From positions 1 through 64,000 of the IMG/VR virus record IMGVR_UViG_3300014208_000023: 64,000 nucleotides of DNA; one strand, written 5' to 3'. The stretch is from a virus (lineage: Duplodnaviria > Caudoviricetes). Position numbers and translations under genes: made by a program. Below, piece by piece: positions 3,216 to 63,730 of the stretch. Positions within the stretch are counted from its first letter, which is position 1. Each line of letters opens with the position of its first letter. The notes under the pieces were generated by a model, which was not told the origin of the DNA, ran no database searches, and worked only from the letters and a program-made list of their open reading frames with translations.

Positions 3216-3572
3216 TCATTTCATCTTACCTAGAGCTCTAACGGAGCTTTCCTCAACAATTATTCCGTTTAGATAGAATATGCTGCCTTGATTATCAACA
3301 TAGGCAGGGCCATCTTCCCTATGATAGTGATTATTTTTGAGCCAGCCTTTACAATCTGGGCGATCAATTGCCGGACCATCTAATCTATGAATCTGACCGT
3401 GGTTGAACCAATGCTTGGTGGATCCATCAGACGATGTATATGCTGGGCCATCCTCCCTATGGGCTCTGCCGTCTTGGTCTGTCCAATGTTCGGAGCCGTC
3501 AATGCTGCGGCGGCATATTGAAAAATCCTCTAACTCTTCAGTTGAAAGAAACTTATCAGTTACGAACTTCAT
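3216..3572 (-). CDS. HRxDGPA-repeat protein (copy 1 of 3)
   Basis: HREDGPA/HRLDGPA repeats; ends VRALGKMK. Confidence 0.85.
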   Translation of the reverse strand: MKFVTDKFLSTEELEDFSICRRSIDGSEHWTDQDGRAHREDGPAYTSSDGSTKHWFNHGQIHRLDGPAIDRPDCKGWLKNNHYHREDGPAYVDNQGSIFYLNGIIVEESSVRALGKMK

Positions 3573-3940
3573 TTCATTTTGCCTAGCGCTCTAACGGCTT
3601 CTTCCGTTACTTCGGCGCCATTAAGAAAATACTGCTTATTGCCATTCATTTTGTTGGTGTATGCTGGACCACCTTCTCTGTGATAGAGGGCGTCGATGAA
3701 CCAACCTTCCCAACTTGGCATTGATACTGCTGGGCCATCTACCCTGTGAAATGCGCCATGCTTATACCAACTATAAGACCCGTTATTATAAATAATAGCT
3801 GGACCATCTTCTCTATGAAGGCCACCTTTCTTATCTACCCAGCGTTCTTTGTAAGAGCCAGGCGTAATCGTATCTCGTTTTGAGAAGTCTTCTAACTCTT
3901 CTTTGCAGAGGAAGATTTTATTTCCGACAACAAGGATCAT
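3569..3940 (-). CDS. HRxDGPA-repeat protein (copy 2 of 3)
   Basis: HREDGPA/HRVDGPA repeats; ends VRALGKMK; ATGA overlaps. Confidence 0.85.
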   Translation of the reverse strand: MILVVGNKIFLCKEELEDFSKRDTITPGSYKERWVDKKGGLHREDGPAIIYNNGSYSWYKHGAFHRVDGPAVSMPSWEGWFIDALYHREGGPAYTNKMNGNKQYFLNGAEVTEEAVRALGKMK

Positions 3941-4302
3941 TTCATTTTTCCTAAAGCCCTAACATCGGACTCTGAAGCTGGTTTGCCGTGTAGAAAATAC
4001 AATGACGGAAGACCATCCCTGATAAGGGCCGGGCCATCTTCTCTATGGGTAATGCCGTTGATTAGCCATTGCGTTACTCCTGGCGTTTCAATAGCTGGAC
4101 CGTCTGTCCTATGTAGTTGGCCATGACAATACCAGTATTTGACTTGGCCGCCATTGCCTATGTAAGCTGGGCCATCCTCTCGATGGCAGTTGCCTTGCTT
4201 ATCAATCCATTTAGTAGAATCGCCAGCAATGAATGTGGTATCGATGATAGAGAAATCCTCTAGCTGTTCTGTAGAAAGAAACTTTTCTGTTACGAATTTC
4301 AT
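3937..4302 (-). CDS. HRxDGPA-repeat protein (copy 3 of 3)
   Basis: HREDGPA/HRTDGPA repeats; ends VRALGKMK. Confidence 0.85.
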   Translation of the reverse strand: MKFVTEKFLSTEQLEDFSIIDTTFIAGDSTKWIDKQGNCHREDGPAYIGNGGQVKYWYCHGQLHRTDGPAIETPGVTQWLINGITHREDGPALIRDGLPSLYFLHGKPASESDVRALGKMK

Positions 4303-11421: not shown

Positions 11422-11694
11422 TTCTCAAGCAAGTCTTCAATTACCTGAAGATAGAGTAGCCAGGCTTCTCGTTTGTTTGTTACGTTGGCAGAGCACCTAC
11501 GTGCTAAGTGCAGAGCATAGTCAAGAACGTTTAGCTCTCGATAGTTATACATCAAGTGTCCCGTAGCTGGTTTGCTTTTTCAATCACAACGGCTCTAGTT
11601 CGAGCTACTTCGACGCGGTTGTCATACTCATTATTTTTAGAGCACGCCGCGCCGTAGTTATCCAGAGCTTCCTCAAATTCTTTCATTGCATCTT

Positions 11695-13191
11695 TCACTT
11701 AAACCTCATACAGCGACCACCTGACAATGCGCTCTTTACTTCTGGGCGTTGAAGTCGAAGAATAGTTTCGCCAGGCATTTGTGTTGCGTTTAGATCGGAC
11801 CTAGAGCTTCCATAGCCGATACCTCGGAACATCAGTCCGAAGAGACCTGTTTTAGAATCTAGCACGGCTTCGTTAAGGTTGCCAGCAAGATCCATCCAGC
11901 CGCCAACATTGTCTGCCGTTACTCGGCCAGGAGCAGCGATAGTCCATGTCTTATCGCTCGTGCTATTACCTAGATCGGGATAATGGTAAACGTGGTTGTT
12001 GAGAAAGCTGCCAGGAACCGGAAGGTTATCTCCAGCATCGAACGTTGCGTTGATTGTATTCACCGCAGGACACTTGCCGCCAGACTGAACCGTATTGGTT
12101 AGAATGTTGCCAAGTAGTTCTCCGTGGTTATCATATTGAATACCACAACCAGAAATGTCCTGGCTTCTAGCCGGGGATTCCGTTACTGCATTCATTACTT
12201 CAGCGGTAGCAAGCTGGCCTCCATCCCATACGCAGAATGCGGCAAGCATAGCGTTAGTAATGCAGTTCATCGACTTGGTGTCGAGATACTCTTGGGCCGG
12301 AATAGTTTCGCTGTTATACCCAATAGCATTCTCGCGAGGAACTTCATTGTTCTTTGTTAGAACGCTTGGCGGATAGTAGTAGGTCGGAAATCCAAATGAT
12401 CCAGCAAACACTCCGCAGTTATTACCGTGAAGGTCAGTATAAACCTGGGCTCCGAACTGATGATTCATTCCTAGGTTAGCTGCCTGATCGGTAGGAGGTG
12501 GAAGAATTACTCCGGGCCCAGCCTGCTCTTGGGTCTGACCATCATGTCGAGGATCACCAAGAAGCAATCGATTGATTGTAATCTGTCCGCCTTCAACATC
12601 AGAAGGAAGGAATGTGCTCCAGCTATTGTTCCAATAGGCTGGCTGATTAGAAACAAGCCAGCCCTTTACGTCCGGCTTACCACCCATCTGATTTGTGATG
12701 GCAGTAACGAATGCTCTAATGCGGCCAGCAGTAATCTCATACTTATCGAGATAGACTTGCTTACCAGGATGAGCGGCATCTGTAAAGCCAGCAACCGGAA
12801 GTGACTGGCAACAACTCTCGTGGGTTACGCCAGCAGAACCAACTTCACCAGAGCCACAAGTATCGCCACCGAAATGAACCTTACAACTAGGAGCCATAAC
12901 GCAAACGTGATCGTAATTACAACTTACGGTGCAGTCACTATCAACTAGGCAATTTCTGCCGCCGCCACATTTGGGAGCGTTGGGTCCGCCGCAACCAACA
13001 TCGGTCTCTCCACTATCGGGGACTGGCGGAGTAGATCCATCAACACCATTACTCGCATCAATCCCAGCATCAACAAAGGAAGGTGGTGACGGATCTGTTG
13101 TTGATGGGGTTTGATTACTCGCAGAATTAGTGATATCATGCTGCATACATCCCACAAGAACAAGGAGGGCGACACCAAACTTTGTCTTCAT
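11695..13191 (-). CDS. lipoprotein with FGE-sulfatase (SUMF1-like) domain
   Basis: LVGC lipobox, DAG linker, Cys-rich segment, YLDKYEITAGRIRAF and MDLAGNLNE motifs. Confidence 0.75.
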   Translation of the reverse strand: MKTKFGVALLVLVGCMQHDITNSASNQTPSTTDPSPPSFVDAGIDASNGVDGSTPPVPDSGETDVGCGGPNAPKCGGGRNCLVDSDCTVSCNYDHVCVMAPSCKVHFGGDTCGSGEVGSAGVTHESCCQSLPVAGFTDAAHPGKQVYLDKYEITAGRIRAFVTAITNQMGGKPDVKGWLVSNQPAYWNNSWSTFLPSDVEGGQITINRLLLGDPRHDGQTQEQAGPGVILPPPTDQAANLGMNHQFGAQVYTDLHGNNCGVFAGSFGFPTYYYPPSVLTKNNEVPRENAIGYNSETIPAQEYLDTKSMNCITNAMLAAFCVWDGGQLATAEVMNAVTESPARSQDISGCGIQYDNHGELLGNILTNTVQSGGKCPAVNTINATFDAGDNLPVPGSFLNNHVYHYPDLGNSTSDKTWTIAAPGRVTADNVGGWMDLAGNLNEAVLDSKTGLFGLMFRGIGYGSSRSDLNATQMPGETILRLQRPEVKSALSGGRCMRFK

Positions 13192-15586: not shown

Positions 15587-16239
15587 TTCTTTTTACTTTC
15601 ATAAACAGCTTTTTTGCCAGCCCTAACAACTCTATCAAGTTCTTCTCTAAAATCGCCATTGCGCTTTATTTTACTTGGATCATCAAGCTCAACAAGCTTG
15701 GCAATAAGCAACGATACTTTGGTAGGATAAAAATTATCCTTTTTGTCCGAATTAATTGCCTTGAGCAATTCTTCTGCCGCTAATCGCAGCGCATCTTTTT
15801 CCAGTAGATAGCAGCAGGCCATACAAACCCTACCAAATTGGGCAGTATAGATATTAAATCCGCCACAATGGTTACAGCGATTATGTTCATCAATTGCTTC
15901 GCACTTTTCAAGTGGGGCCTTATCTAGAAAGTAATCGCATGACCAACACCAACTACTTGAAAGTGGAGCTTGAACAATGCGGCCTCTTTTCAGAAGAGTA
16001 TTTGCTTCTTCAATAGTTTTCGGGCAAACGGTTTTATTGTTTGCATCAATAAAGTGTCTGGTCTTTCCAGAGAACCCATCGTCTATCTTGATAGGTTTCT
16101 GACCTTCAACGCTCCATACAATTTGTCCTGGGTAATACATCGCTATTTTCCTTTGCGCTTTCCATGTTCCCAGAGAACAACATCCTTTAGTCGGAAGGAT
16201 TGAGATAGACAATTTCCAGTATTGACATCTTGAACCCAA
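15583..16239 (-). CDS. Cys-rich hypothetical protein (true start probably MYYPGQ, ~16140)
   Basis: CxxC motifs; 5' part overlaps upstream gene. Confidence 0.6.
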   Translation of the reverse strand: MGSRCQYWKLSISILPTKGCCSLGTWKAQRKIAMYYPGQIVWSVEGQKPIKIDDGFSGKTRHFIDANNKTVCPKTIEEANTLLKRGRIVQAPLSSSWCWSCDYFLDKAPLEKCEAIDEHNRCNHCGGFNIYTAQFGRVCMACCYLLEKDALRLAAEELLKAINSDKKDNFYPTKVSLLIAKLVELDDPSKIKRNGDFREELDRVVRAGKKAVYESKKK

Positions 16240-16385
16240 CCATCATCGGTAACGCCAATGACGGAGCAAGTATGCTTAATACCATTGTTGTCTGCTCTCC
16301 AACCATACACCACATAGTCGCCCTTCTTGAATGTCTTCTTAAGATATTCAACTTCGGGAAAAGGATCTGATACTAGTTCGTGCAT
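16143..16385 (-). CDS. hypothetical protein
   Basis: ORF with AGAGGA RBS. Confidence 0.65.
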   Translation of the reverse strand: MHELVSDPFPEVEYLKKTFKKGDYVVYGWRADNNGIKHTCSVIGVTDDGWVQDVNTGNCLSQSFRLKDVVLWEHGKRKGK

Positions 16386-16399
16386 TGTATTTCCTCTTT

Positions 16400-16740
16400 A
16401 AATAATAGGGAAGGTTTCAATATGCCCCAACAGCATATTTCTTGTAGCCGATAGTTATTACCATAGGGTTGGCAAGCTTATATGCTCCCTCTATCGGATT
16501 TCCCAATATCTCGGGCGGCCTTATAATGCCTACCGTTGATACCTGCAAGTCTCGCCATTCTCTGCTTAATGCTACGCCTTGGCTGAAGGGTAGCCCTTAT
16601 AGACAACAGAGTAATCTACCGTTTTACTTTCTCATTCGCAGATACTTCAAAACGGCACTTGGCATTGTCGATGACTTTGCCACGGAGATTTCTCTCCAGT
16701 ATCTACTACTCTTCTTTTCTTTGGGGAAAGAAGCAAAACT
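16400..16740 (-). ncRNA. candidate structured ncRNA/leader
   Basis: ~340-nt intergenic region with several 5-7 bp helices and a possible pseudoknot. Confidence 0.35.
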
Positions 16741-19160: not shown

Positions 19161-19189
19161 GTGAAGGCACAAGCTTTGTTTTAAAGTAG

Positions 19190-19260
19190 AGCCCATAGAA
19201 GGAGTCGAACCCTCAAGACCTAGGTACAAACTAGGGATTTTACCGTTAAATTACATGGGC
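19190..19260 (-). tRNA. trnT: tRNA-Thr(UGU)
   Basis: GCCCATG..TATGGGC, AC arm CCTAG TT-TGT-AC CTAGG, T loop TTCGACT. Confidence 0.9.
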
Positions 19261-28264: not shown

Positions 28265-28678
28265 TAAACGTAACCAGTTATTTTCTTTGGCAGTCTTACG
28301 ACGGTGACAGTTAGAGCATCTAACTACACACTTTTCTATCTCCAGATCAATTTTAGTTTTACTCATTCCGTAGCGCAACAGTGTTGATATGCCTGCAACC
28401 TTTTCGCCAGTAACGTGGTCGAAATCTAAAACGACAGGATCCTTTTCGCCGCAATCAACACATCCATCTTTCATTCTGCCAATGACGTAGTACGCAAGTA
28501 GTTTCTTGCGCTCTTTATTTCTAGCAAAATGCTTATCTTTATTTGCTAGATAAAAATCGCGGCTGATTGCTTTTGAGCAATCTCTACAGTTAGGTTGTAA
28601 TCCAGACCTCTTTTTGTTGAAATCAGATACGGGTTTAGATGAGCGACACGAGCTACATACTTTGAAAGACAAAGACAT
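28250..28678 (-). CDS. HNH homing endonuclease
   Basis: CVDCG...LDFDHV...CVVRCSNCHRRKT; N-terminal CSSC..CRDC. Confidence 0.92.
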   Translation of the reverse strand: MSLSFKVCSSCRSSKPVSDFNKKRSGLQPNCRDCSKAISRDFYLANKDKHFARNKERKKLLAYYVIGRMKDGCVDCGEKDPVVLDFDHVTGEKVAGISTLLRYGMSKTKIDLEIEKCVVRCSNCHRRKTAKENNWLRLGPII

Positions 28679-28687
28679 ACTTTGATA

Positions 28688-28966
28688 TCAAAGTATGCAT
28701 ACTTTCCATGAAATTAACTGCGTCCAAGAAAAAATATATGATGACCTCACTAGTACGCGATCATATATTTCCCTTGGGCGACTTGCAATCAACAATTTGA
28801 TGTGGAATCGAACCACAGTGTTAGTGATATTCACCCACCCATTACCAGTAGCCAATTGTTGACTGCCATTATCTAAATAATTGCGCCCTACTATTAGCTC
28901 CAACCAATAGCGGGACGACTTGCAATATAATACATGGAGGCGCATAGATGGATTTGAACCATACAT
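28688..28966 (-). CDS. hypothetical protein
   Basis: ORF; start overlaps a T-arm-like hairpin. Confidence 0.4.
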   Translation of the reverse strand: MYGSNPSMRLHVLYCKSSRYWLELIVGRNYLDNGSQQLATGNGWVNITNTVVRFHIKLLIASRPREIYDRVLVRSSYIFSWTQLISWKVCIL

Positions 28967-34815: not shown

Positions 34816-35013
34816 ATGTCTCTACTTACAATCGTAATCGTTCTCATTCTCGCTGGCGTTGGGCTCTACGTCATAAACTCTATTATCCCAATGGACGCAA
34901 CCATAAAGAAGGTAATCAATATCGTTGTTATCGTGGTTGTTTGTCTGTGGTTAGTAATGAGTCTATTTGGCGGAGCTGGAGCTGTGGGTATTCACATGCC
35001 CCGCATTAACTGA
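34816..35013 (+). CDS. small two-TM membrane protein (Thivi_2564-like)
   Basis: GVGLYVINSIIPMDATIKKVINIVV pattern; AAGGA RBS; own terminator. Confidence 0.8.
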   Translation: MSLLTIVIVLILAGVGLYVINSIIPMDATIKKVINIVVIVVVCLWLVMSLFGGAGAVGIHMPRIN

Positions 35014-35034
35014 TTAGTAATTAGTTTTTACCCT

Positions 35035-35068
35035 AAACCCGCTTGGTATAACCAAGCGGGGTTTTTTA
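35035..35068. terminator. bidirectional intrinsic terminator
   Basis: CCCGCTTGGT/ACCAAGCGGG flanked by AAA and TTTTTT between convergent genes. Confidence 0.85.
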
Positions 35069-35266
35069 TTCAAGCTCAATCATTACGACACGAAGCTGTT
35101 CGTATTGTTCTTTTTCGCGAATATATTTACCATCAACAATGGTTTCACGAACTTCATCAAGACTGTCTAGAGAGCCAGGGCCGAACGGCCCCATAGTTGA
35201 TCCGACCCATACAGGCAAGCTTTGATCCATTGTCTGGAGTTTAGCAATCAATTCTGCAACGGTCAT
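35066..35266 (-). CDS. hypothetical phage protein (MTVAELIAKL type)
   Basis: common phage N-terminal motif. Confidence 0.7.
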   Translation of the reverse strand: MTVAELIAKLQTMDQSLPVWVGSTMGPFGPGSLDSLDEVRETIVDGKYIREKEQYEQLRVVMIELE

Positions 35267-37376: not shown

Positions 37377-37632
37377 ATGTGCTCCATTGAAAAAGCTTGA
37401 GAGACACGGTGCTTGGTAGTGGTAGGCTGATGCCAAACTTATAACCACTTTAGCCGTTAGCCTGACTTGCTGATTACTACTAGGGGAGCTACCCGGTTCG
37501 CAAGGTAGAGCGATACCCCAAAAAGGGGAACCAATACGCAATCAACAAAAATAAATTCCATTTTAGGGAATATATTCCAGACCTTGGTAATACTCTGCTA
37601 AAAAATATTACCTTTACCATCCAATCTCTCAG

Positions 37633-37701
37633 TGGTTCGCATAGGACTTGCACCTACATGCCAGGGTGGGAGCCCTGTATACTGCTTTGTATGAACGAAC
37701 C
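37633..37701 (-). tRNA. trnG: atypical tRNA-Gly(CCC)
   Basis: GGTTCGT..GCGAACC-A; AC CAGGG CT-CCC-A CCCTG (6-nt loop if fully paired); T loop TGCAAGT. Confidence 0.6.
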
Positions 37702-38090
37702 TAATTCACATTCTTACGTGGAATGCGACATGTAACGGCCATGATAGTCATGTTATCATTATTCAATACTGAATGGGTCGTGTCCTTGATTGACACCTTA
37801 ACGTTTGGGAAATTCAACTTTAGTAATCGAACGGCCTTCTTTAGGAGAAGGTCAAACTTCTCTGGAGTTAAACTTGAGACATCTTTGGCCAAGTAGTATG
37901 GCTCAGTCATTAGCTCTATAGTAACTTCAAAATGAGAGGGATGCTCTTCCAAATTATTATCTGCAACGAATGGGTATAGGTCTTTCATAACCGCATCCAT
38001 TCTATCTCTTACAGAATCCTTCTCTGTATCTCCCGATACTTCATCTAGAAATTCATCGGCTAACTTAATGAGTTCTGAATTGGCTGCCAT
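37701..38090 (-). CDS. hypothetical protein
   Basis: ORF; stop abuts tRNA. Confidence 0.7.
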   Translation of the reverse strand: MAANSELIKLADEFLDEVSGDTEKDSVRDRMDAVMKDLYPFVADNNLEEHPSHFEVTIELMTEPYYLAKDVSSLTPEKFDLLLKKAVRLLKLNFPNVKVSIKDTTHSVLNNDNMTIMAVTCRIPRKNVN

Positions 38091-38099
38091 TATGTAATG

Positions 38100-38700
38100 A
38101 TAGAATATTCACAGAAGTGTATTAGATTACTCGGAGAGTACGAACCGATAGTTGGAGTCATCGATGGAAGGTTAAAGGCCATCACCAATGTTCCGAGGCA
38201 TCCCTCTAACTGGTTGCTGAACAACCCGCACATAGAACATAATCTAACACACTTCAGTCGGTCCTTGATTATAGGCCTTTGGGGGAGGAGAATCCATAAT
38301 CAAGGACTGACTGAAAAGCGTTAGAGATTAATGATTTTAAACCAGCCCCTAACTTTTGGGCGCCTTCTAACTATGAGAGACTACCTCTACGGTCGAGGGT
38401 GAGATCAAGCACCCAGCGGCAAAGGGATCGTTTTACATCATAGAGTTAGCGGGCTGATTGAAAAGCGTTAGTGATACGGTAGAGCCAGCTACCGAACCTT
38501 TATTCAATTACCATTACTGGATGGTTGCCGCTATTACATTGCGGCTTCGCCTACTGATAACCAGGAATCAATTCTGCGGGGATAAGGAGGTTTTAGTCAG
38601 TTCCCTAACCTTGCGTCGGATTTAACCGCGAGTGTTTATCTTTGAGCTGCATCATGGACTTATGCTCGATTCAAATGCTGTTACGCACACACAAGCTCAT
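38100..38700 (-). ncRNA. candidate large (~600 nt) structured ncRNA
   Basis: 20-bp near-perfect helix, 22-nt direct repeat, pseudoknot potential, no credible ORF. Confidence 0.55.
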
Positions 38701-38865
38701 TGTCAATAGGTATGTATCATTTCAACCTAAAGACTCAGCATTCTACTTACATCCCTGTATCCTACCTGATGTAATCAAATAGGCCGGGGATAAAGACTAG
38801 AAACTACTATCTGACTTATAGTTTCCATTACCGGCAAATTGTATTTCAATTCAGACCGGATTGAT

Positions 38866-39141
38866 TTATTCCGCTGCCTCTTCCGGGATCGGAAGGCGCA
38901 GGCTATTGAGCAGAGCGTTGCGATCCTCCTTGCCTTCCGGCATAGGCCTTCCAGCGAGAATCCAAGCCTTGCGCTTGACGTGATAGTTGCGATGCCCGGT
39001 GAATCGGGCTTCGTTGCAGTTCTCGGCATTGATAGCCTTCTCTGCACGCACACGAGTGAAGCCCTTTTTGGCAGCACTCAAGTTCTGACGCTTGATGCCC
39101 AACTGGATCTTACTCTTCGTTCCGCTTCGTCCCCTAGACAT
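38866..39141 (-). CDS. basic hypothetical protein
   Basis: Arg/Lys-rich ORF with AAGGAG RBS. Confidence 0.7.
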   Translation of the reverse strand: MSRGRSGTKSKIQLGIKRQNLSAAKKGFTRVRAEKAINAENCNEARFTGHRNYHVKRKAWILAGRPMPEGKEDRNALLNSLRLPIPEEAAE

Positions 39142-39180
39142 GTTCGTTCTCCTTATTTTGTTGTGATATATCTAATCATA

Positions 39181-39597
39181 ATGCATAAAAAATCTAGAGA
39201 CAGACTCCATCCCATGATGGTTAGCGCCAGACAAACTTATAATCACTCCTATAAGAAGAAAGATAAAAATTGCTGTGATTTTGAAACCTTCTATCGGTTA
39301 TCACAACTACCTTGCCATTACTGTGGGAGAAACCCATTTAGAATTTACAATATAGGAAATTGTAGGGAAGGTAGCTATTATACGACCGATGAGCAGAAGG
39401 AGAATGGTAATTTTGTTTATAACGGAATTGACCGAATAGACAGTACGAAAAGTCATACTTCAGATAATTTAGTTCCGTGTTGTTGGGTATGCAACCGAGC
39501 GAAGGCAAATAAGCCTGTAGAAGAATTTCTTGAATGGATTGAGTTAGTATATAATTATACTAAACTAACTCATCGAACATCCGACACAACCGTTTAA
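39181..39597 (+). CDS. HNH-like homing endonuclease
   Basis: PCHYCG..NGIDRIDSTKSHTSDNLVPCCWVCNRAK; start reassigned to 39181 after TGATATATC motif. Confidence 0.85.
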   Translation: MHKKSRDRLHPMMVSARQTYNHSYKKKDKNCCDFETFYRLSQLPCHYCGRNPFRIYNIGNCREGSYYTTDEQKENGNFVYNGIDRIDSTKSHTSDNLVPCCWVCNRAKANKPVEEFLEWIELVYNYTKLTHRTSDTTV

Positions 39598-40570: not shown

Positions 40571-40620
40571 ACTAAAAGGGAATCGAACCCTATCCTAGCC
40601 AGGTATCCTTTACTCTCAGC
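40571..40620 (-). pseudogene. truncated tRNA-like RNA (T-arm plus weak acceptor)
   Basis: AGGG TTCGATT CCCT; no D-arm. Confidence 0.4.
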
Positions 40621-40719
40621 GCCCATGGTAGGAGTCGAACCTACAACGACCCGGAAAGACTACGCACCTTCTACGGTGGATAATCCGGCCAGTATGTCTG
40701 CCAATTGCATCACACGGGC
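40620..40719 (-). ncRNA. tRNA-Leu-like RNA with elongated anticodon arm
   Basis: GCCCGTG..CATGGGC acceptor, Leu-type D-loop AATTGGCAGAC, T-arm GTAGG TTCGACT CCTAC; ~38-nt AC arm ending CACC GTAGAA GGTG. Confidence 0.7.
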
Positions 40720-47149: not shown

Positions 47150-47169
47150 TCAGAATCCTTTCTTTAATA

Positions 47170-47203
47170 CCGGCCACTAACTTACATATAAACTAGTGGC
47201 CGG
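47170..47203. terminator. 10-bp perfect hairpin after basic peptide gene
   Basis: CCGGCCACTA/TAGTGGCCGG. Confidence 0.5.
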
Positions 47204-47225
47204 GGTTTAAAGAAGTGAGCCTTAC

Positions 47226-52588: not shown

Positions 52589-52792
52589 CTTCCAACCAAG
52601 AGACAGACTGATTAGCGGCCCTTTGTTCGACACGGATAACTAGTAAGGAAATACTAGATTAGCCTTGGCGGCCGAGTATGTATGACGCCCTAAAGCTAGC
52701 CACACATACCCATTGACACCGTGCCTACTTTCTTTGCCTATTCGCGCATAATCAGTCTGACTCTTGGTTAGAAGGCGGAGCCGAAGCTCCGC
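52589..52792 (-). repeat. GC-hairpin + CCTTCT long-stem element
   Basis: GCGGAGC TTCG GCTCCGC then AACCAAGAG/CTCTTGGTT plus CAGACTGATTA/TAATCAGTCTG; ~135-nt loop. Confidence 0.8.
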
Positions 52793-57816: not shown

Positions 57817-57966
57817 CCTCCTAATTCGGGCCTGTAACAACTTCTGTGTAGCACATGGGTTTAGATTTTACGAGCTATCAGAGGAGACTCGAACCCCTCC
57901 AGCCATGGACTTCACATTATATGCTACAAACCCGAATTAGAAGGGGGAAGGTAGTTAGTCTTCCCC
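57817..57966 (-). repeat. GC-hairpin + CCTTCT long-stem element
   Basis: GGGGAAG..CTTCCCC then CCTTCTAATTCGGG/CCCGAATTAGGAGG; loop holds TATAAT and a T-arm. Confidence 0.8.
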
Positions 57967-59033: not shown

Positions 59034-59139
59034 CCTTCTAACTCTATTCAATAGACATGCGCCAGATAAGCTCCGGCCTAGTTCCTATCTGAATCTATTG
59101 AATAGAGCTAGAAGGGGGAGACTTGGTTAGAGTCTCCCC
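59034..59139 (-). repeat. GC-hairpin + CCTTCT long-stem element
   Basis: GGGGAGACT/AGTCTCCCC then 22-bp CCTTCTAGCTCTATTCAATAGA/TCTATTGAATAGAGTTAGAAGG (one G-U). Confidence 0.85.
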
Positions 59140-59997: not shown

Positions 59998-60117
59998 TCC
60001 CTCTAACTCGGTTCAATTAGACTCGGGCGCTCAACCAAGGGACAACGCCCGGTATATTGCTAAGCCACCACCTAATTGAACCGAGTTAGAAGGGGGAGTC
60101 TGTGTTAGAAACTCCCC
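59998..60117 (-). repeat. GC-hairpin + CCTTCT long-stem element
   Basis: GGGGAG..CTCCCC then perfect 19-bp TCTAACTCGGTTCAATTAG/CTAATTGAACCGAGTTAGA. Confidence 0.85.
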
Positions 60118-61797: not shown

Positions 61798-61867
61798 CCT
61801 CCTACCTTGAGACTGTAACTCATACGAGCTAGAGTGTCAAGGTAGAAGGGGAGGATTGCGCCTCCCC
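61798..61867 (-). repeat. GC-hairpin + CCTTCT long-stem element containing a sigma70 promoter
   Basis: GGGGAGG/CCTCCCC then CTTCTACCTTGA/TCAAGGTAGGAG; TTGACA-17-TACAGT inside. Confidence 0.8.
61812..61840 (-). promoter_or_regulatory. sigma70-type promoter of AAA ATPase
   Basis: TTGACA-17 nt-TACAGT. Confidence 0.75.
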
Positions 61868-63606: not shown

Positions 63607-63730
63607 ATCCCTCTAATCAAGTCCCAAGAACACTTGCCATTGTGATCCTGCTGCTAGTTAGACTAGAGGAGGTTTCCAGACGAGCGGCATGGAACTTGAT
63701 TAGAGGGATGAGAGGGATCGGCCCCTCATC
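63607..63730 (-). repeat. GC-hairpin + long-stem element
   Basis: GATGAGGGG..CCCTCTCATC overlapping perfect 16-bp ATCCCTCTAATCAAGT/ACTTGATTAGAGGGAT. Confidence 0.75.

What the first reader, a model, noticed from the sequence alone, without database searches (positions are those of the whole stretch)
38100..38700. ~600-nt highly structured non-coding region: candidate novel large phage RNA
Seen: a 20-bp helix (38253-72 with 38296-315) extendable to ~30 bp, whose loop GGCCTTT can pair with AAAGGCC (38174-80) as a pseudoknot; a 22-nt direct repeat (38307-28 and 38454-75, 20/22 identical) leading two long stems; a competing 10-bp long-range pairing (38291-300 with 38651-60); GTTAGAAGG at a stem base as in the repeated element; and TTGACA-17-TAACAG upstream (38678-706). 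Established: large ornate RNAs (GOLLD, ROOL) occur in phage tRNA regions. I cannot assign this region to either.
Basis: partly seen in the sequence, partly recalled or inferred. Interest (0 to 1): 0.7.

Follow-up and report, generated by a model that had tools for sequence, protein, structure and literature searches.

The report
Conserved modular non-coding RNA block in phage
A gene-free stretch of about 540 bases in a 428-kb groundwater phage is kept by selection and folds into hairpins, but it looks like a patchwork of a small five-hairpin RNA and long "separator"-type stems between two genes rather than one giant ornate RNA.

Summary
The stretch 38091-38865 has no ORF in any frame or stop-codon reassignment, and it matches no Rfam family. 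It lies between two minus-strand genes of a 428,320-bp phage.

A close relative (L007/L008) and a distant one (L010) split it into parts:
- **Spacer, 38629-38865.** It diverges at the neutral rate.
- **Conserved block, 38091-38628.** It changes about three times more slowly than four-fold sites of the flanking genes (7.7% against 25.6%).

Inside the block:
- **Core, 38468-38628.** This ~160-nt core of five short hairpins is the only part shared with L010. Nine of its pairs show changes on both sides, but it is not unusually stable (z -0.66).
- **3' half.** This carries the excess stability (z -4 to -5.7), through long stems related to the phage's "separator" elements.
- **The 30-bp helix.** It lies in an 84-nt insertion that the close relative lacks. 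There the same arm forms a long-range stem instead. The proposed pseudoknot and 10-bp pairing lie in the insertion, so they are not conserved.

My reading: a modular intercistronic RNA block, not a GOLLD/ROOL-like RNA. I found only three lineages and no RNA data. The scan had already noted this stretch on the same genome (e1-5374041).

The parts
38866..39141 (-). Upstream gene of 91 aa: basic, all-helical, unknown family. Context only.
   Evidence: ORF. No Pfam or PHROG match. 69 family representatives. AF2 pLDDT 81 with no PDB fold match.
38629..38865 (-). Variable spacer with local hairpins.
   Evidence: Against L008: 23% mismatches in aligned columns plus 108 gap columns, no different from 4-fold sites (p=0.76). 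Absent in L010. Promoter not called and not conserved.
38468..38628 (-). Conserved core of ~160 nt: an invariant 5' block AAUCCGACGCAAGG followed by five hairpins. P1 38602-38610/38580-38588; P2 38561-38564/38550-38553; P3 38541-38545/38527-38531; P4 38521-38525/38510-38514; P5 38489-38498/38473-38482.
   Evidence: 89-92% identity to L008 and 72% to L010. Nine pairs changed on both sides, against 0-2 in the slid controls and 0/500 shuffles. The covariance model R1 hits only this site in the 428-kb genome. z = -0.66.
38451..38475 (-). Arm A, 5' arm of a long stem: AUCACUAACGCUUUUCAAUCAGCCC.
   Evidence: 25/25 identical in L008. In L008 it pairs with arm B in a long-range helix of about 26 bp, z -4.73. 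In the window it pairs with 38331-38350.
38345..38450 (-). Cargo 1: a hairpin domain whose outer stem CUAACUCUAUGA / UCAUAGUUAGAAGG resembles the long stem of the phage's separators.
   Evidence: 105/106 identical to L008. Folds. Compared with canonical separators.
38260..38344 (-). Lineage-specific 84-nt insertion. It carries a second copy of arm A (A', 38304-38328) and the loop of the 30-bp hairpin (hairpin 38243-38325).
   Evidence: Absent in L007/L008. Repeat and helix.
38240..38259 (-). Arm B (GAAGUGUGUUAGAUUA). It can pair upstream with A or A', or downstream with arm C.
   Evidence: 19/20 identical to L008. Inverted repeats I1 and I3. Consensus helix of 17 bp with arm C.
38130..38239 (-). 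Cargo 2: a multi-hairpin domain that includes the hairpin GGUUG-UUCAG-CAACC (38212-38226) and GUUAGAGGG (38202-38210).
   Evidence: 87% identity to L008. Two compensatory pairs in the hairpin, GC->AU and UA->CG.
38111..38129 (-). Arm C, 3' arm of the B:C helix. It ends 20 nt before the start codon of the next gene.
   Evidence: I3. The only changes seen (L008, run X9) turn Watson-Crick pairs into G-U pairs on the minus strand.
38091..38110 (-). Leader of the 129-aa gene, with no Shine-Dalgarno sequence. It is the end of an open frame (38090-38233) that stops in UAAUG.
   Evidence: 20/20 identical to L008. Translations.
37701..38090 (-). Downstream gene of 129 aa, unknown function. Context only.
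   Evidence: ORF. 91% identical homologue P0001. No Pfam or PHROG match.

Best explanation
The conserved part (38091-38628, minus strand) is a modular, structured intercistronic RNA block. I think it is transcribed together with the flanking leftward genes.

It has two kinds of part:
1. A ~160-nt core of five short hairpins sits at the 3' side of the 91-aa gene. It is a small RNA or RNA element with an unknown partner.
2. Long, near-perfect helices (A:B, or A':B plus A:B*, then B:C) each enclose a hairpin 'cargo'. They are derived from the phage's repeated separator stems.

Inferred mechanism. The 17-30-bp helices act as double-stranded RNA sites where a host RNase III-type enzyme cuts, or which insulate and stabilise the RNA. 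This would free the core and cargo RNAs and set the 5' end of the next message. The B:C helix, the fully conserved leader without a Shine-Dalgarno sequence, and an open frame ending in UAAUG would together control translation of the 129-aa gene.

Shown here: no coding capacity, selection at the nucleotide level, compensatory changes, single copy, modular rearrangement.
Inferred only: transcription, strand of the core, cleavage, translational control.
For: **Non-coding.** Stops occur in all frames. The only sizeable frame, 55 aa on the plus strand, is frame-shifted in L008 and L010.

**Selection.** The block differs from L008 at 35 of 456 aligned sites (7.7%). Four-fold sites of the two flanking genes differ at 23 of 90 (25.6%), p=6e-6. 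The adjoining spacer diverges at 23%.

**Structure.**
- Nine core pairs changed on both sides; no shuffle of 500 reached this, and the slid controls gave 0-2.
- Two compensatory pairs lie in the cargo-2 hairpin.
- The A:B helix of L008 and the A':B helix of the window differ by compensating changes (read by eye).

**Strand of the 3' half.** There are many G-U pairs on the minus strand. At 38101-38300, z is -3.98 on the minus strand against -0.28 on the plus strand. All neighbouring genes are on the minus strand.

**Co-transcription.** In L010 the core starts 8 nt after the stop codon. No conserved promoter or terminator was found.

**Modularity.** There is an 84-nt indel, a different sequence after the core in L010, and a third junction in run X12.

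**Relation to separators.** Nine stems in the window share CCUUCUAAC...GUUAGAAGG, and the 3' end serves as the Shine-Dalgarno sequence of the next gene. Cargo 1 and the A/B arms carry CUAAC...GUUAG.

**No peptide constraint.** There is no synonymous change in the 21 identical codons of the open frame, and every change seen alters the residue.
Against: - No RNA data exist for this phage, so transcription, RNA ends and cleavage are untested.
- There are only three independent sequences, so the covariation evidence is thin.
- The strand of the core is ambiguous: 6 G-U pairs favour the minus strand and 4 the plus strand. Variants in run X10 split 1:1.
- The core has no excess stability.
- The near-identity of 38345-38512 to L008 could come from recent recombination rather than selection.
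- The stems here lack the defining ends of the canonical separators (CCUUCU / AGAAGG next to a GC hairpin).
- The phage encodes no RNase III, so a host enzyme has to be assumed.
Confidence: 0.5

Rival explanations
1. The whole conserved block (about 450-540 nt) is one large structured non-coding RNA of a new class. It would fold as a unit and act in trans, as the first reader proposed by analogy with GOLLD and ROOL.
For: The block is conserved contiguously from about 38650 to 38091 against L008. Arm A directly follows P5 of the core, and part of it (UAUCAYUAA) is kept in L010. In L008 the A:B helix ties the core to the 3' half. There is no Rfam match.
Against: - Only ~160 nt is shared with L010.
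- An 84-nt indel sits in the middle, and a third arrangement exists in X12.
- No covariation-supported tertiary or long-range contact was found beyond simple stems.
- There is no conserved promoter or terminator.
- The core has z -0.66.
- The family is confined to three lineages, unlike GOLLD and ROOL.
Confidence: 0.15
2. The block has no RNA function. It would be debris from decayed small genes and decayed or duplicated separator hairpins, or a DNA-level site such as a recombination hot spot or an attC-like site. Its apparent conservation would come from recent recombination between the two phages.
For: - Hairpin modules are gained and lost here: 84-nt and ~60-nt indels, and three junction variants.
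- GUUAGAGGG followed by AUG looks like the end of a former separator plus a gene start.
- 38345-38512 is almost identical to L008, which suits a recent exchange.
- Hairpin covariation is also compatible with single-stranded DNA structures.
Against: - The core is kept at 72% in L010, where four-fold sites of the adjacent gene differ at 15 of 28.
- Compensatory changes occur in six helices.
- Changes in the B:C helix are all G-U-compatible on one strand only.
- The neighbouring spacer shows what neutral decay looks like here.
- The phage has no tyrosine recombinase.
Confidence: 0.15
3. The stretch hides one or more small protein genes. Candidates are the 47-codon frame 38090-38233, which overlaps the next start codon in UAAUG, and the 55-codon plus-strand frame 38458-38625.
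For: The minus-strand frame is open in both the window and L008. A +1 and a -1 indel restore it within 12 nt. The downstream gene has no Shine-Dalgarno sequence, so it could depend on coupling.
Against: - The peptide is not conserved: every change seen is non-synonymous, and there is no synonymous change in 21 identical codons where about 26% of silent sites should differ.
- The start codon differs between the two phages.
- The plus-strand frame is broken by single-base indels in L008 and L010.
- The remaining ~400 nt has stops in all frames.
Confidence: 0.07

Closest known systems
RNase III processing sites between early genes of phage T7 (R0.3-R1.3). Established knowledge, Dunn and Studier; not tested here.
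   Same: Long imperfect double-stranded hairpins lie between same-strand genes of a polycistronic phage transcript. They end shortly before the next start codon and need no phage-encoded enzyme.
   Different: Cleavage has not been shown here. The stems enclose 85-110-nt 'cargo' domains. Alternative pairings exist (B with A or with C). There is no sequence similarity.
This phage's own 'separator' elements: a GC hairpin followed by a ~22-bp stem CCUUCUAAC...GUUAGAAGG (earlier notes e1-5374035 and e1-5374030; re-examined).
   Same: They share the CUAAC...GUUAG stem bases, a long stem with variable cargo, the position between minus-strand genes, and GUUAGAAGG / GUUAGAGGG motifs inside the block.
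   Different: The stems here lack the CCUUCU / AGAAGG clamp, and no GC hairpin abuts them. No start codon follows GUUAGAAGG. The 129-aa gene has no Shine-Dalgarno sequence in the 3' arm.
GOLLD, ROOL and OLE large ornate RNAs (PMC12286853).
   Same: A long non-coding stretch in a phage region that also carries tRNA and tmRNA genes.
   Different: There is no match to their Rfam models at E<=10. It has no multi-junction ornate architecture supported by covariation. It is modular, rearranged between close relatives, and known from three lineages only.
Small stable RNAs of unknown function in the phage T4 tRNA region (species 1 and 2, rnaC/rnaD). From my own knowledge; not tested.
   Same: Small (~120-160 nt) hairpin-rich phage RNAs of unknown function that are made by processing a longer transcript.
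   Different: The core is not next to a tRNA gene; the nearest called one is 10 kb away.

Membership tests
GOLLD / ROOL / OLE / HEARO / RNase P RNA / group I intron (Rfam 15) | A match to the family covariance model | tested here: not met
   cmscan of the whole window at gathering score found only a tmRNA and five tRNAs. A sensitive scan of 37600-39200 at E<=10 gave only miRNA-type hairpin noise on the 30-bp helix.
Large ornate RNA (as a kind) | A long RNA (over 400 nt) whose many helices and junctions are conserved and covary across diverse homologues | tested here: not met
   Only ~160 nt is shared with L010. An 84-nt indel and three junction variants exist. Covariation is seen only in simple hairpins.
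Phage 'separator' element of this genome | A GC-rich hairpin directly followed by a 5' arm that starts with CCUUCU | tested here: not met
   Arms A, A' and B start with AUCWCUAAC or ACUGAAG. The 5' arm of cargo 1 reads CCCGCUAAC. No abutting GC hairpin is present.
Phage 'separator' element of this genome | A 3' arm that ends in AGAAGG / AGGAGG and serves as the Shine-Dalgarno sequence 5-25 nt before a start codon | tested here: not met
   GUUAGAAGG (38363-38371) is followed by no start codon. Arm C ends 20 nt before the AUG but holds no Shine-Dalgarno sequence.
Phage 'separator' element of this genome | A long stem (17-30 bp) with CUAAC...GUUAG bases that encloses a variable cargo between same-strand genes | tested here: met
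RNase III processing site (T7 type) | About 20 bp or more of double-stranded RNA in an intercistronic position | tested here: met
   A':B 20-30 bp, A:B about 26 bp in L008, B:C 17-19 bp.
RNase III processing site (T7 type) | Cleavage by RNase III in vivo or in vitro | not testable with these tools
   No RNA run holds the stretch. The phage encodes no RNase III domain.
   PF00589 gives no match in the 428-kb genome, while all 14 control genomes match.

The most novel reading that the evidence does not exclude
The whole conserved block (core, A:B domain and B:C domain; about 450-540 nt) is a single large structured phage RNA of a new class that acts in trans. The 160-nt five-hairpin core would be its ancient functional centre, and the separator-like stems would be peripheral domains that can be swapped.
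Probability: 0.15. Interest if true: 0.7.

Novelty: new member of a known kind. Interest (0 to 1): 0.4.

Why it matters
Huge phages carry many long stretches without genes, and these are usually left unannotated. This stretch shows that one of them is kept by selection at the RNA or nucleotide level. It also shows that the stretch is assembled from reusable hairpin modules around a small conserved RNA. If the long stems are processing or insulating sites, this phage organises its early transcripts as T7 does, but with stems that carry cargo RNAs. The five-hairpin core would be an unnamed phage RNA motif that could be added to RNA family libraries once more homologues are known. It does not, on present evidence, add a new giant ornate RNA.

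Tried and rejected
**Known RNA families.** Rfam at gathering score and at E<=10 gave no family.

**Searches for more homologues.**
- blastn of 37900-39000 against 50,697 phage records: no match.
- Self-blast against the genome: no second copy.
- Flanking proteins in viral contigs: nothing.
- Relatives found through the AAA ATPase (L002-L006) are about 45% identical in protein and have no hit to model R1.
- Motif scans of viral, metagenome and genome contigs gave nothing, except L020, a chance match inside a gene of a GC-rich organism that R1 rejects.
- Distant homologues of the 91-aa protein (L013-L019) are followed directly by genes and have no core.

**Expression.** No RNA holder is listed for the stretch. 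The four runs I laid gave only short contigs of near-identical strains.

**Function of the neighbours.** The AF2 model of the 91-aa protein has no PDB fold match and no PDB sequence match.

**Targets.** A search for phage sequences complementary to the invariant core blocks found no convincing target.

**Rejected readings.**
- The pairing of the core block CGACGCAAGGUUA with 38162-38174 (11 of 13) is weakened in L008.
- The resemblance of P1 (..ACCUCCUUA) to the 3' end of 16S rRNA is not conserved in L008 or L010 and got no Rfam support.
- CRISPR-repeat mimicry by the 25-nt repeat: there is only one copy in L008 and no CRISPR-DR hit there.
- The plus-strand terminator-like site at 38477-38494 has a tail that L010 does not keep.

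Full report
**Setting.** The window is the first 64 kb of a 428,320-bp IMG/VR phage record with direct terminal repeats. Runs that hold the stretch completely are groundwater metagenomes. Almost all genes in the window lie on the minus strand. The window also carries five tRNAs and a tmRNA. The finding lies between a 91-aa gene (38866-39141) and a 129-aa gene (37701-38090), both on the minus strand. Neither matches Pfam or PHROGs.

**Checking the observation.** The 775 nt from 38091 to 38865 have several stops of all three kinds in all six frames, so no genetic code opens them. These features are as described:
- the 30-nt inverted repeat (87% complementary) and the 25-nt direct repeat (88%);
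- GTTAGAAGG at 38371-38363;
- the hexamers TTGACA and TAACAG, readable at 38706-38678.

The whole stretch folds better than shuffles on both strands (z -4.8 and -4.2). A 200-nt scan places that excess at 38100-38450 (z -4 to -5.7) and 38700-38950 (about -3). 38400-38700 scores near 0. In the scanned 1-37,800 of the window, the background z is -1.3 +/- 1.6, and 7 of 377 windows fall below -5. The stretch is therefore among the most structured places of the scanned part, but not unique.

**Known families.** Rfam 15 gives nothing, either at gathering score or at E<=10 on 37600-39200. The only hits there are miRNA-type noise on the big hairpin. The stretch has no match in 50,697 phage records and is single-copy in its own genome.

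**Relatives.** The flanking proteins led to short Logan contigs:
- L007, L008 and L009 come from one close relative, with proteins 91-95% identical.
- L010 is more distant, with the 91-aa protein 67% identical.

Alignments divide the stretch as follows.

| Part | Coordinates | Comparison with L008 (and others) |
|---|---|---|
| Spacer | 38629-38865 | 23% mismatches plus 108 gap columns; absent from L010 |
| Core | 38468-38628 | 89% identical; 72% identical to L010 |
| Arm A and cargo 1 | 38345-38475 | 130 of 131 identical |
| Insertion | 38260-38344 | an 84-nt segment that L008 lacks |
| Arm B, cargo 2, arm C, leader | 38091-38259 | 87-100% identical |

Four-fold degenerate sites of the two flanking genes differ at 23 of 90 positions, or 25.6%. 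Against this yardstick:
- the spacer is neutral (p=0.76);
- the block 38091-38628 changes three times more slowly (7.7%, p=6e-6);
- each sub-block is significant on its own.

**The 30-bp helix.** This helix was the centrepiece of the finding, and it lies in the 84-nt insertion.
- In L008, arm B (GGGGCUGAUUGAAGUGUGUUAGAU) pairs at long range with arm A (AUCACUAACGCUUUUCAAUCAGCCC). The resulting helix of about 26 bp encloses cargo 1 (z -4.73).
- In the window, a second copy of arm A (A') sits next to B and forms the local hairpin. Arm A itself pairs with a new partner at 38331-38350.
- By eye, the A:B and A':B helices differ by compensating changes, so a long helix at this place is kept while its layout changes.
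- A 151-nt soil contig (run X12) keeps 38152-38256 but continues differently beyond arm B. That is a third arrangement.
- The loop pseudoknot (GGCCUUU / AAAGGCC) and the pairing 38291-300 / 38651-60 involve the insertion and cannot be conserved.

**The core.** Three sequences (window, L008, L010) support five hairpins, P1 to P5, after an invariant block AAUCCGACGCAAGG.
- On this structure 95% of cells pair, and nine pairs changed on both sides.
- No shuffle of 500 reached this, and sliding the partners gives 0-2 such pairs.
- The core is no more stable than shuffles (z -0.66).
- It has no conserved ORF. The 55-codon plus-strand frame is frame-shifted in both relatives.
- G-U pairs do not settle its strand: 6 favour the minus strand and 4 the plus strand. 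The variants in run X10 split 1:1.
- In L010 it begins 8 nt after the stop codon of the upstream gene. This argues for co-transcription on the minus strand.

The covariance model R1 finds only the window, L007/L008 and L010. It finds nothing elsewhere in the genome, in fragments of distant relatives, or in loci holding distant homologues of the 91-aa protein, which are followed directly by genes. Motif scans of the viral, metagenome and genome collections added only one chance hit.

**The 3' half.** The consensus fold of the window and L008 gives a cargo-1 domain and a 17-bp B:C helix that encloses cargo 2.
- There are many G-U pairs on the minus strand.
- Two compensatory pairs lie in the hairpin GGUUG...CAACC.
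- At 38101-38300 the minus strand folds at z -3.98 and the plus strand at z -0.28.
- The only changes seen in arm C (L008, X9) turn Watson-Crick pairs into G-U pairs on the minus strand.
- Arm C ends 20 nt before the AUG of the 129-aa gene. That gene has no Shine-Dalgarno sequence and a leader that is 20/20 conserved.

A frame is open from 38233 to the UAAUG overlap, and it is also open in L008 after compensating indels. Its peptide is not conserved. There are no synonymous changes in the identical codons, so the constraint is on the RNA rather than on a protein.

**Relation to the repeated element.** Earlier notes of this scan (e1-5374035, e1-5374030) describe 'separators'. I re-examined nine of them in this window. 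Each has a GC hairpin followed by a long stem CCUUCUAAC...GUUAGAAGG/AGGAGG, and the 3' end is the Shine-Dalgarno sequence of the next gene. The stems in this block share the CUAAC...GUUAG bases, the length and the cargo layout. They lack the CCUUCU / AGAAGG clamp and the abutting GC hairpin, so they are degenerate relatives rather than canonical members.

The phage has no tyrosine recombinase, which argues against an attC-like site. It has no RNase III gene.

**Explanation.** I favour, at about 0.5, a modular intercistronic RNA block on the leftward transcript. It consists of a small conserved five-hairpin RNA plus long double-stranded stems. The stems would act as processing or insulating sites of the T7 RNase III kind, and the last one would control translation of the SD-less downstream gene.

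Rivals:
- one large RNA of a new class (0.15);
- non-functional hairpin and gene debris, or a DNA-level site, with conservation due to recent recombination (0.15);
- hidden small genes (0.07).

No RNA data exist for this phage, so transcription, RNA ends and cleavage remain inferred.

**Verdict.** The GOLLD/ROOL-like reading is not supported. What remains is a new, narrowly distributed phage non-coding element of a known general kind, of moderate interest.

Noticed in passing
window 38090-38233 (-); L008 1195-1338: A frame of 47 codons (37 from the first AUG in L008) stays open in both phages, through a +1/-1 indel pair, and ends in UAAUG on the start codon of the SD-less 129-aa gene. Its peptide is not conserved. 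It may be a coupling 'leader' frame.
   Followed up: partly
window 57817-57944, 52589-52774, 59034-59115, 59999-60093, 61798-61849, 63607-63709, 47158-47215, 26650-26720: In the canonical separators, the 3' end of the long stem (AGGAGG, AGAAGG, GGAAG) is the Shine-Dalgarno sequence of the next gene, 5-25 nt before its start codon, and it pairs with CCUUCU in the 5' arm. The stems therefore sequester ribosome-binding sites.
   Followed up: partly
window 38866-39141 (-): The 91-aa basic protein belongs to an unnamed family of 69 cluster representatives. R30, H50, N52 and H54 are invariant among 43 aligned members. The model is all-helical (pLDDT 81) with no Pfam or PDB match. In relative L015 it follows a DUF2786/DUF7168 gene; in L013 it follows an AAA ATPase gene.
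   Followed up: partly
window 38152-38256 versus run X12 (soil metagenome): A 151-nt contig keeps arm B and part of cargo 2 (4 differences) but continues with unrelated sequence beyond arm B. The junction at about 38257 is a hot spot for rearrangement.
   Followed up: no
window 23012-23399 (-): A phage-encoded tmRNA (Rfam RF00023, 80.7 bits). Five tRNAs are also present: Arg, Thr, Lys, Ala, Glu.
   Followed up: no
window 40618-40646 versus 19188-19216: A 29-nt stretch is 83% identical to the 3' half of tRNA-Thr (T arm and acceptor), but neither ARAGORN nor Rfam calls a tRNA there. It may be a tRNA-like element or a remnant.
   Followed up: no
window 21401-21800, 28401-28700, 34901-35100, 26601-26800, 11501-11700, 16201-16400: These other 200-nt windows have minus-strand folding z below -5.5 (12 shuffles each, so the values are noisy). 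They are further candidate structured RNA sites.
   Followed up: no
window 3216-4302 (-): Three tandem paralogous genes of about 120 aa carry internal 66-72-nt periodic repeats (families D1-D5 of the repeat search).
   Followed up: no
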